The notes under the pieces: model-generated
Databases searched by the model: none
What the model saw: only the letters and a program-made list of their open reading frames with translations
What the model was told of the DNA's origin: nothing
Shown: positions 54,072 to 54,155 of the stretch, piece by piece
Layout of the letters: every line of letters begins with the position of its first letter
Position numbering within the stretch: position 1 is the first letter of the stretch
Translations under genes and position numbers: made by a program
NCBI RefSeq assembly: GCF_041886205.1
Contig: NZ_CP169029.1
Length of the DNA: 64,000 bases
Source: Escherichia coli
GTDB lineage: Bacteria > Pseudomonadota > Gammaproteobacteria > Enterobacterales > Enterobacteriaceae
Strand: one strand, 5' to 3'

Positions 54072-54099
54072 TCAGATTCGTTTTATAGCCTGAAGTTCC
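54072..54099 (-). promoter_or_regulatory. Sigma-E (RpoE)-dependent degP promoter (-35 GGAACTT, 16-bp spacer, -10 TCTGA)
   Basis: Minus strand reads cGGAACTTcaggctataaaacgaaTCTGAagaac, 45 bp upstream of the degP ATG; matches the sigma-E consensus. Confidence 0.7.
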
Positions 54100-54155
54100 G
54101 AACTAAAGTTTCTGCAAAAGGTAAAAATTTATTGTTCGTCTTTACAAAAGCCTGG

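What the first reader, a model, noticed from the sequence alone, without database searches (positions are those of the whole stretch)
54072..54155. degP promoter: clean sigma-E consensus with possible upstream CpxR site
The minus strand carries GGAACTT-N16-TCTGA, a near-perfect sigma-E promoter, 45 bp upstream of the degP ATG. The region immediately upstream (54100-54155) contains GTAAA-like pentamers (gtaaagacgaacaataaa) resembling CpxR half-sites. This matches the known dual envelope-stress control of degP. The sigma-E promoter is clearly present; the CpxR site is suggestive only.
Basis: partly seen in the sequence, partly recalled or inferred. Interest (0 to 1): 0.15.

Follow-up and report, generated by a model that had tools for sequence, protein, structure and literature searches.

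The report
Known degP stress promoter, E. coli

Summary
The window is E. coli chromosome. On the minus strand, GGAACTT (54099-54093), a 16-nt spacer and TCTGA (54076-54072) lie in the 129-bp dgt-degP gap, 45 nt before the degP ATG.

Published genome-wide start-site maps put a degP start at K-12 180844, which is window 54066. That is 5 nt after TCTGA and 26 nt after GGAACTT, the geometry reported for sigma-E promoters.

The "possible CpxR site" GTAAAGACGAACAAT (54145-54131) is a listed CpxR site (degP1, De Wulf 2002). By weight matrix it is weak, rank 152 in the window. It nevertheless lies in the most conserved block of the gap: GTAAAG-N5/6-CAATA-N4-TTTAC occurs in 103 of 103 Enterobacteriaceae upstream regions and in two Serratia.

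Three features were not in the finding:
- A second start at 54073, inside the sigma-E -10. It was seen in stationary phase, also occurs in Klebsiella, and matches Salmonella htrAp2.
- A conserved TATAAA in the spacer.
- The 5' UTR (54066-54021), which matches Rfam's HtrA thermometer.

Verdict: already known; low interest.

The parts
54093..54099 (-). Sigma-E -35 element GGAACTT (-33..-27 relative to the start at 54066)
   Evidence: Read directly; unique in the window. GAACT is invariant in 33 genus-level sequences. In 103 Enterobacteriaceae the element is GGAACTT in 81, GGAACTA in 14 and TGAACTT in 8.
54077..54092 (-). 16-nt spacer CAGGCTATAAAACGAA. It contains TATAAA (54087..54082) and TAAAAC (54085..54080), candidate -10 hexamers for the nested second promoter.
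   Evidence: The spacer is 16 nt in 98 of 103 species. ATAAA is kept in 95 of 103 and TATAAA in 81 of 103. Other spacer positions vary.
54072..54076 (-). Sigma-E -10 element TCTGA
   Evidence: It is TCTGA in 92 of 103 species, TCTTA in 7, TCTCA in 2 and TCTAT in 2. It matches 3 of 5 positions of the TCAAA consensus of Rhodius 2006.
54066..54066 (-). Transcription start of the sigma-E promoter (A; K-12 180844; 40-nt 5' UTR; equivalent to Salmonella htrAp3)
   Evidence: Start-site tables of Cho 2014 (20 reads, exponential and glutamine) and Kim 2012 (13 reads). The printed context matches the window exactly. The Rfam thermometer model begins at this base.
54073..54073 (-). Second transcription start (the G of TCTGA; K-12 180837; 47-nt 5' UTR), seen in stationary phase. 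Inferred sigma-70/sigma-S type promoter, equivalent to Salmonella htrAp2.
   Evidence: Cho 2014 Table S4: 28 reads, stationary phase only. Its Table S6 flags sigma-38 ChIP-chip binding. K. pneumoniae start 207608 falls on the same G (25 reads). Salmonella has a 47-nt-UTR start.
54131..54145 (-). CpxR box degP1, GTAAAGACGAACAAT (-79..-65 relative to 54066)
   Evidence: Listed as a known CpxR site, credited to De Wulf 2002, in PMC9600279 Table S1. Weight-matrix score 6.2 bits, rank 152 in the window.
54121..54148 (-). Invariant upstream block TTTGTAAAGacgaaCAATAaattTTTAC: two inverted GTAAA pentamers 15 bp apart around a central CAATA. Inferred activator (CpxR-P) binding region.
   Evidence: TTGTAAAG, CAATA and TTTAC are invariant in 33 genera, including two Serratia whose surrounding sequence has diverged. 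The pattern is present in 103 of 103 species. As a neutral baseline, 6 of 69 dgt wobble columns are invariant.
54021..54066 (-). degP/htrA 5' UTR RNA thermometer (four-U hairpin over the ribosome-binding site)
   Evidence: Rfam RF02700: 77 bits against a gathering score of 52, E 1.3e-16, full length. The predicted hairpin has the same topology as the SHAPE-verified Salmonella one.
52602..54026 (-). degP (htrA) coding sequence, 474 aa
   Evidence: NCBIfam NF008189 equivalog, 935 bits; RefSeq annotation.
54156..55673 (-). dgt coding sequence. Its stop codon lies 10 nt upstream of the CpxR box, and no terminator-like site follows it.
   Evidence: NCBIfam NF003429, 895 bits. The terminator scan found none in 53800..54500.
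54281..54295 (-). CpxR box degP2, GTAAATTACCGTCAG, inside dgt (listed site; role uncertain)
   Evidence: Listed in PMC9600279 Table S1. Weight-matrix score 12.3 bits, rank 8 in the window. The second half-site is conserved only in Escherichia and a few others.

Best explanation
This is the known regulatory region of E. coli degP (htrA).

Shown:
- RNA polymerase carrying the envelope-stress sigma factor sigma-E recognises GGAACTT (-35) and TCTGA (-10), which are 16 nt apart. It starts transcription at the A at window 54066 and produces an mRNA with a 40-nt leader.
- A conserved block upstream, 54148-54121, contains the listed CpxR box GTAAAGACGAACAAT at -79 to -65.

Inferred from the literature and from conservation:
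- This block binds phosphorylated CpxR, which raises transcription when the Cpx system senses envelope stress.
- In E. coli this boost appears to work largely through the sigma-E promoter.

Two further layers lie in the same stretch:
- A weak nested promoter uses the conserved TATAAA in the spacer and starts at the G of TCTGA (54073). It probably supplies sigma-E-independent, stationary-phase expression, as htrAp2 does in Salmonella.
- The 40-nt leader folds into a weak four-U hairpin over the ribosome-binding site. This is the HtrA RNA thermometer, which should add temperature control of translation.
For: Identity of the locus.

Motif, position and uniqueness.

Start site:
- The start at 54066 comes from two published start-site data sets, and the printed context matches the window exactly.
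- The geometry fits the 28-promoter sigma-E model: 16-nt spacer, 5-nt discriminator, 26 nt from -35 to +1, purine start.

Sigma-E dependence:
- degP was the most strongly induced gene on rpoE overexpression, 56-fold on array and 64-fold by qRT-PCR.
- degP is in the conserved core sigma-E regulon.
- Sigma-E ChIP-seq in Salmonella gives a peak with the consensus at htrA.

Conservation: 103 of 103 Enterobacteriaceae keep a sigma-E-type -35/-10 pair. Serratia and Symbiopectobacterium keep TGAACTT-N16-TCTGA or GGAACTT-N16-TCT(G/T)A, some at other distances.

CpxR:
- The site is listed as known.
- degP rises 27-fold in cpxA24 and 32-fold with NlpE overproduction, against 6-fold without cpxR.
- The block is an invariant footprint.
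- Overproducing CpxR alone did not induce degP. The authors attributed this to dependence on limiting sigma-E.

Nested start.

Thermometer.
Against: - The -10 TCTGA matches only 3 of 5 positions of the modern TCAAA consensus. A simple consensus count does not single the site out in the window.
- The CpxR box is a weak matrix match, with one perfect and one degenerate half-site (rank 152).
- A CpxR ChIP-exo study under ethanol stress did not list degP among direct targets.
- I could not read the original footprinting and primer-extension papers (Pogliano 1997, De Wulf 2002, Lipinska 1988, Lewis 2009 are not held). The exact extent of CpxR protection therefore rests on secondary listing.
- Start-site read counts are low, 13 to 28 reads.
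- The sigma-E assignment in Cho 2014 was imported from RegulonDB and not measured.
Confidence: 0.93

Rival explanations
1. Cpx activation works mainly through the nested sigma-70/sigma-S type promoter (-10 TATAAA/TAAAAC, start at 54073) and not through sigma-E polymerase. On this view the two stress systems use two overlapping promoters that share one upstream activator site.
For: - A second start exists 7 nt upstream in E. coli, K. pneumoniae and Salmonella.
- ATAAA in the spacer is conserved in 95 of 103 species while neighbouring spacer positions vary.
- No usable -35 precedes it, which is typical of activator-dependent promoters.
- From my own recollection, unverified: Danese 1995 reported that Cpx induction of degP is only partly sigma-E dependent.
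Against: - Overproduced CpxR alone did not induce degP, which the authors explained by a need for sigma-E.
- The E. coli second start was seen only in stationary phase, at 28 reads.
- E. coli has C rather than T at the last position of TAAAAT.
- No data here link CpxR to either start.
Confidence: 0.2
2. The invariant A/T-rich block at 54148-54121 is chiefly an UP-like element for the polymerase alpha subunit, or the site of another DNA-bending protein. Its resemblance to a CpxR site would then be secondary.
For: - Rhodius 2006 reports A/T-rich UP-like sequence upstream of sigma-E -35 elements.
- The block scores poorly as a canonical GTAAA-N5-GTAAA direct repeat.
- Its two perfect pentamers are inverted rather than direct.
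- CpxR ChIP-exo under ethanol did not report degP.
Against: - The site is listed as an experimentally supported CpxR site.
- degP induction by Cpx activation is strong and largely cpxR dependent.
- The invariant letters are the GTAAA pentamers themselves, not general A/T richness.
- The UP-like peaks reported at -48/-49 and -57/-58 do not coincide with GTAAA at -79..-75.
Confidence: 0.1
3. The motif is a chance match with no promoter function.
For: The relaxed pattern is expected about once per window by chance. Four other sites tie on a simple consensus count.
Against: - The exact pattern occurs in 0 of 100 shuffles.
- A mapped start lies at the predicted distance.
- The motif is conserved in 103 of 103 species.
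- rpoE overexpression induces degP 56-fold.
- ChIP-seq in Salmonella gives a sigma-E peak at htrA.
Confidence: 0.01

Closest known systems
E. coli degP (htrA) sigma-E promoter, a core member of the sigma-E regulon (Rhodius et al. 2006, PMC1312014; TSS in Cho 2014, PMC3923258, and Kim 2012, PMC3415461)
   Same: It is this very promoter. The window matches the published 51-nt start-site context exactly, and the -35, spacer, -10 and start geometry are the same.
   Different: Nothing differs. The only nuance is that the -10 is TCTGA rather than the regulon-wide TCAAA, and that this non-consensus form is itself conserved (92 of 103 species).
CpxR-P binding sites, GTAAA-N5-GTAAA (De Wulf et al. 2002, as tabulated in PMC9600279 Table S1: degP1 and degP2)
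   Same: GTAAAGACGAACAAT at 54145..54131 is letter for letter the listed degP1 site. GTAAATTACCGTCAG at 54295..54281 is the listed degP2 site.
   Different: degP1 has only one consensus pentamer in direct orientation. The conserved unit is larger: GTAAAG-N5/6-CAATA-N4-TTTAC, with a second perfect pentamer inverted 15 bp away. degP2 lies inside dgt and is not conserved outside Escherichia.
Salmonella Typhimurium htrA promoters htrAp1/p2/p3 (Lewis et al. 2009, as summarised in PMC5602114)
   Same: Salmonella shows starts giving 40-nt and 47-nt leaders. E. coli shows starts at exactly these distances, 54066 and 54073. The -35 and -10 are identical.
   Different: No E. coli start was reported for the far-upstream promoter inside dgt. 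E. coli carries TAAAAC where Salmonella has TAAAAT. From my recollection, the E. coli literature describes a single promoter.
Rfam RF02700, HtrA 5' UTR thermometer (Klinkert 2012; SHAPE analysis in PMC5602114)
   Same: Full-length match above the gathering score (77 against 52 bits). The hairpin has the same four-U lower stem, one-base bulge and 5-nt loop.
   Different: E. coli has an A.C mismatch in the lower stem (GAGACUG against GAGAUUG). The predicted stability at 30 C is -4.5 against -7.4 kcal/mol. Temperature response in E. coli was not tested here.

Membership tests
Sigma-E (RpoE, group IV) dependent promoter | -35 element GGAACTT | tested here: met
   7 of 7 match at 54099..54093; consensus from Rhodius 2006.
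Sigma-E (RpoE, group IV) dependent promoter | Spacer of 15-19 nt, with 16 strongly preferred | tested here: met
   16 nt. The spacer is 16 nt in 98 of 103 related species.
Sigma-E (RpoE, group IV) dependent promoter | -10 element of TCAAA type | tested here: inconclusive
   TCTGA matches TCAAA at 3 of 5 positions: T and C at positions 1-2 and the final A. It matches the older TCTGA consensus fully, but that consensus was, to my knowledge, partly built from degP.
Sigma-E (RpoE, group IV) dependent promoter | Purine start 5-6 nt after the -10 and 25-28 nt after the -35 | tested here: met
   The published start is the A at 54066, 5 nt after TCTGA and 26 nt after GGAACTT.
Sigma-E (RpoE, group IV) dependent promoter | Transcription depends on sigma-E | not testable with these tools
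   Literature only: 56-fold induction on rpoE overexpression, membership of the core regulon, and a sigma-E ChIP-seq peak at Salmonella htrA.
CpxR-P binding site | Tandem GTAAA-N5-GTAAA | tested here: inconclusive
   One perfect pentamer plus a degenerate ACAAT. The score is 6.2 bits, below 37 of the 39 training sites, and rank 152 in the window.
CpxR-P binding site | Recorded as an experimentally supported CpxR site | tested here: met
   Identical to degP1 in PMC9600279 Table S1, credited to De Wulf 2002. The primary paper is not held (one search gives no PMC id).
CpxR-P binding site | Conserved beyond the neutral background | tested here: met
   TTGTAAAG, CAATA and TTTAC are invariant in 33 genera. 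The pattern occurs in 103 of 103 species, against 6 of 69 invariant wobble columns.
CpxR-P binding site | Physical binding of CpxR-P, and loss of Cpx induction when the site is mutated | not testable with these tools
   Expression data support Cpx control. ChIP-exo under ethanol did not list degP.
Rfam RF02700 HtrA thermometer | Covariance-model score above the gathering threshold | tested here: met
   77 bits against 52, model positions 1-46 of 46, window 54066..54021.
Rfam RF02700 HtrA thermometer | Hairpin pairs a U run with the ribosome-binding site and melts near 37-42 C | tested here: inconclusive
   The predicted hairpin has the right topology and is lost at 42 C in prediction. It is not more stable than shuffled sequences (z = 0.94). 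No experiment exists for E. coli.
Nested sigma-70/sigma-S type promoter (Salmonella htrAp2 equivalent) | Start giving a 47-nt leader | tested here: met
   K-12 180837 corresponds to window 54073, seen in stationary phase. The same base is a start in K. pneumoniae, and Salmonella has a 47-nt UTR.
Nested sigma-70/sigma-S type promoter (Salmonella htrAp2 equivalent) | Recognisable -10 and -35 hexamers | tested here: inconclusive
   -10 candidates are TATAAA (-14..-9) and TAAAAC (-12..-7). I found no acceptable -35 by eye, and the consensus scan reported no sigma-70 site on this strand.

The most novel reading that the evidence does not exclude
E. coli degP is not driven by a single sigma-E promoter. 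A second, sigma-E-independent promoter is nested inside it, with its -10 (TATAAA) in the sigma-E spacer and its start on the G of the sigma-E -10. This would explain two things. It would explain why 92 of 103 Enterobacteriaceae keep the non-consensus TCTGA and 95 keep ATAAA in the spacer. It would also explain how degP is expressed in stationary phase, or under Cpx activation, when sigma-E is limiting. The invariant inverted GTAAA...TTTAC block would then be one activator platform shared by two polymerase holoenzymes.
Probability: 0.45. Interest if true: 0.2.

Novelty: already known. Interest (0 to 1): 0.06.

Why it matters
degP is a standard reporter gene for both envelope-stress pathways, so its promoter is a reference case, not a discovery. 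This check shows that a reader working from sequence alone recovered a real, mapped promoter and a real activator site.

The small added value is twofold. Public start-site data and 103-species conservation together suggest that the nested second promoter described in Salmonella also exists in E. coli. The E. coli leader also belongs to the HtrA thermometer family. Both bear on how degP-reporter data are interpreted.

Tried and rejected
- **Primary papers.** Pogliano 1997, Lipinska 1988, Price & Raivio 2009 and Thomason 2015 are not held. De Wulf 2002 and Lewis 2009 have no PMC id in the reference lists I saw. The extent of the CpxR footprint could therefore not be checked.
- **Text searches.** Searches for the promoter sequence, or for an overlapping sigma-70 degP promoter, returned nothing useful.
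- **Sigma-E weight matrix.** None could be built. Rhodius 2006 Table 1 and its supplements are not held as text. I used a simple consensus count instead.
- **Terminator.** The scan found no dgt terminator and no sigma-70 promoter on the degP strand.
- **degP2 box.** I tested whether the CpxR box inside dgt is conserved beyond coding constraint. It is not, outside Escherichia.
- **IHF site.** I looked by eye for an IHF-type site in the conserved block and saw no match. This is my own inspection, not a tool result.
- **Searches not run.** I ran no large-scale protein homology or structure searches. The proteins are unambiguous equivalog matches, so those searches would add nothing.

Full report
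**1. What is in the sequence**

On the minus strand the window reads ...GTAGAACAATAA (end of an ORF, stop at 54158..54156), then ccaggcttttGTAAAgacgaACAATaaattTTTACcttttgcagaaactttagttcGGAACTTcaggcTATAAAacgaaTCTGAagaacAcagcaattttgcgttatctgttaatcgagactgaaatacATG.

- GGAACTT is at 54099..54093.
- The spacer is 16 nt.
- TCTGA is at 54076..54072.
- The ATG is at 54026, so 45 nt lie between TCTGA and the ATG.

The flanking ORFs are unambiguous. The downstream 474-aa protein is DegP (NCBIfam equivalog NF008189, 935 bits, cutoff 720). The upstream 505-aa protein is dGTPase Dgt. The next gene is cdaR. The same 501 bases occur in 5424 of 5426 complete E. coli genomes under the annotation dgt | degP, 5231 of them at 99% identity or more. 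The window is E. coli chromosome, inverted relative to K-12 numbering (window x = 234910 - K-12 coordinate).

**2. Is it more than chance?**

- The exact pattern GGAACTT-N16-TCTGA occurs once in 64 kb and in none of 100 shuffles.
- A looser pattern, GAACTT-N15-17-TCNNA, is expected about once by chance.
- Measured against the 28-promoter consensus of Rhodius et al. 2006 (-35 GGAACTTTT, -10 (T/C)GGTCAAAA), the -10 matches only T, C and the last A. Four other window sites tie on a crude match count, against about 1.9 expected by chance.

So the sequence alone is a strong lead but not proof. The description "near-perfect" is partly circular, because to my knowledge the classical TCTGA consensus was drawn from degP, rpoH P3 and rpoE.

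**3. Start site**

Two published genome-wide maps of 5'-triphosphate ends list a degP start at K-12 180844:

- Kim 2012: 13 reads, 40-nt UTR.
- Cho 2014: 20 reads, exponential and glutamine conditions.

The 51-nt context printed with the site matches window 54116..54066 exactly. The start is therefore the A at 54066. It lies 5 nt after TCTGA and 26 nt after GGAACTT.

Rhodius 2006 reports, for sigma-E promoters, a 5/6-nt discriminator, 25-28 nt from -35 to +1, 16 nt as the preferred spacer, and a purine start.

The sigma-E label in Cho 2014 was imported from RegulonDB and not measured.

**4. Sigma-E dependence (literature)**

- degP was the most strongly induced gene after rpoE overexpression, 56-fold on array and 64-fold by qRT-PCR.
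- It belongs to the conserved core regulon.
- In Salmonella, whose -35 and -10 are identical, sigma-E ChIP-seq gives a peak with the consensus motif at htrA.

**5. Conservation**

I anchored on a conserved coding peptide of DegP (MPSLAPMLEKVMP; pattern at 53915..53878). This anchor is independent of the promoter. I scanned one genome per species (120 loci).

Among 103 unique syntenic Enterobacteriaceae upstream regions, every one has a sigma-E-type pair:

| Element | Variants (count of 103) |
|---|---|
| -35 | GGAACTT 81, GGAACTA 14, TGAACTT 8 |
| Spacer | 16 nt in 98, 17 nt in 5 |
| -10 | TCTGA 92, TCTTA 7, TCTCA 2, TCTAT 2 |

Serratia marcescens and Symbiopectobacterium keep TGAACTT-N16-TCTGA (TCTAA in one) further upstream. 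Serratia oryzae and Serratia sp. H1w keep GGAACTT-N16-TCT(G/T)A.

In a 33-genus alignment the invariant intergenic columns are TTGTAAAG, CAATA, TTTAC, one T, GAACT and the last A of TCTGA. As a neutral yardstick, only 6 of 69 third-codon columns at the end of dgt are invariant in 29 genera, with mean identity 0.53.

**6. The CpxR site**

GTAAAGACGAACAAT (54145..54131, that is -79..-65) is letter for letter the site "degP1 (htrA)" in a published table of 41 known CpxR sites, credited to De Wulf et al. 2002. A second listed site, degP2 GTAAATTACCGTCAG, lies at 54295..54281 inside dgt.

A weight matrix built from the 39 other sites gives:

- degP1: 6.2 bits, lower than 37 of 39 training sites, and rank 152 in the window. 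It could not be called from sequence alone.
- degP2: 12.3 bits, rank 8.

Conservation points the other way. degP1 lies in the best-conserved block of the whole gap: GTAAAG-N5/6-CAATA-N4-TTTAC in 103 of 103 species, kept even in two Serratia whose neighbouring sequence has diverged. The second half of degP2 is conserved only in Escherichia and a few others.

The conserved unit is not a plain direct repeat. It has two perfect GTAAA pentamers in inverted orientation, 15 bp apart, around an invariant CAATA.

Expression data support Cpx control. degP rises 27-fold in cpxA24 and 32-fold with NlpE overproduction, against 6-fold in a cpxR deletion.

Two negative notes:

- Overproduced CpxR alone did not induce degP. 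The authors explained this by a need for limiting sigma-E.
- A CpxR ChIP-exo study under ethanol did not list degP as a direct target.

I could not read the original footprint paper (Pogliano 1997).

**7.

(a) A second start.
- Cho 2014 lists K-12 180837 (28 reads, stationary phase only), whose context ends ...AATCTG. This is the G of TCTGA, window 54073, inside the sigma-E -10. The region is also flagged for sigma-38 ChIP-chip binding.
- K. pneumoniae has its stronger degP start (207608, 25 reads) on the same G.
- In Salmonella three starts are described, giving leaders of 40 nt, 47 nt, and 215 or 449 nt. The 40-nt start was seen only under stress in the first study, and the 47-nt start was low and constitutive.
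- The E. coli starts give leaders of 40 and 47 nt, so they correspond to htrAp3 and htrAp2.
- A start inside the sigma-E -10 cannot come from the same -35/-10 pair. The likely -10 is the TATAAA (54087..54082) or TAAAAC (54085..54080) in the spacer. ATAAA is kept in 95 of 103 species while other spacer positions drift. No good -35 is present.

(b) The thermometer.
- The leader 54066..54021 matches Rfam RF02700, the HtrA 5' UTR thermometer, at 77 bits against a gathering score of 52, full length. The model begins exactly at the mapped start.
- The predicted hairpin has a four-U lower stem over the ribosome-binding site, a one-base bulge and a 5-nt loop. This is the topology verified by SHAPE in Salmonella.
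- E. coli has an A.C mismatch and a weaker predicted stem, -4.5 against -7.4 kcal/mol at 30 C.

**8. Mechanism, with status of each step**

Shown: the motif, its position, the mapped start, the conservation, and the listed CpxR box.

From the literature: sigma-E dependence, Cpx dependence, and the thermometer in Salmonella.

Inferred:
- CpxR-P binds the invariant block and helps sigma-E polymerase, consistent.
- The nested start is a sigma-S or sigma-70 promoter.
- The E. coli leader responds to temperature.

The main rival is that CpxR acts through the nested promoter. A lesser rival is that the block is chiefly an UP-like element (Rhodius notes A/T-rich UP-like sequence upstream of sigma-E -35 elements). 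Neither can be settled by computation.

**9. Verdict**

The finding is correct and already known. It is the reference promoter for the two envelope-stress pathways, so interest is low.

The most novel reading not excluded is that E. coli, like Salmonella, has a nested sigma-E-independent promoter. That would also explain why the non-consensus TCTGA and the spacer TATAAA are conserved. This would be a modest refinement of a well-studied system.

Noticed in passing
window 54021..54066 (-): The degP 5' UTR matches Rfam RF02700, the HtrA RNA thermometer (77 bits, gathering 52), starting exactly at the sigma-E start site. E. coli carries an A.C mismatch in the lower stem, and the predicted hairpin is weaker than in Salmonella.
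   Followed up: partly
window 54073 (-): A published stationary-phase start (K-12 180837) falls on the G inside the sigma-E -10. The same base is a start in K. pneumoniae, and it corresponds to the 47-nt-leader start of Salmonella htrAp2.
   Followed up: partly
window 54241..54295 (-), inside dgt: The listed CpxR box degP2 (54295..54281) lies 40-54 nt upstream of the point equivalent to the Salmonella 215-nt-leader start (about 54241). That point is preceded by TATTAT (54254..54249, two Tyr codons whose wobble T is largely conserved). No E. coli start is reported there, and the second half of the box is conserved only in Escherichia.
   Followed up: partly
window 55749..55763 (+): The best CpxR weight-matrix hit in the whole window, GTAAATCTATGAAAA (16.8 bits), lies in the divergent dgt/mtn promoter region. 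It also appears as a predicted site in PMC9600279.
   Followed up: no
window 53138 (-), inside degP: A published start site (K-12 181772, 40 reads) lies inside the degP coding sequence. The authors assigned it to cdaR with a 691-nt leader.
   Followed up: no
window 54156..54160 and 53800..54500: No intrinsic-terminator-like site follows dgt. Read-through from dgt into degP is therefore possible, and Cho 2014 lists degP;cdaR as one transcription unit.
   Followed up: no
loci L040, L049, L095 (Serratia marcescens, Symbiopectobacterium): These more distant relatives keep TGAACTT-N16-TCTGA (TCTAA in L095). It lies about 245-253 nt before the coding anchor, against 184 nt in E. coli, which implies a much longer leader of different sequence.
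   Followed up: no
window 38033..38060 (-): A sigma-E-like match, GGAACTAAAAGCCGTAGATGGTATCGAA (6/7 in the -35, 4/5 in the -10, 16-nt spacer). By K-12 coordinate mapping from memory, not checked against annotation, it lies about 1 kb upstream of bamA inside rseP. It might be one of the known sigma-E promoters of that cluster.
   Followed up: no
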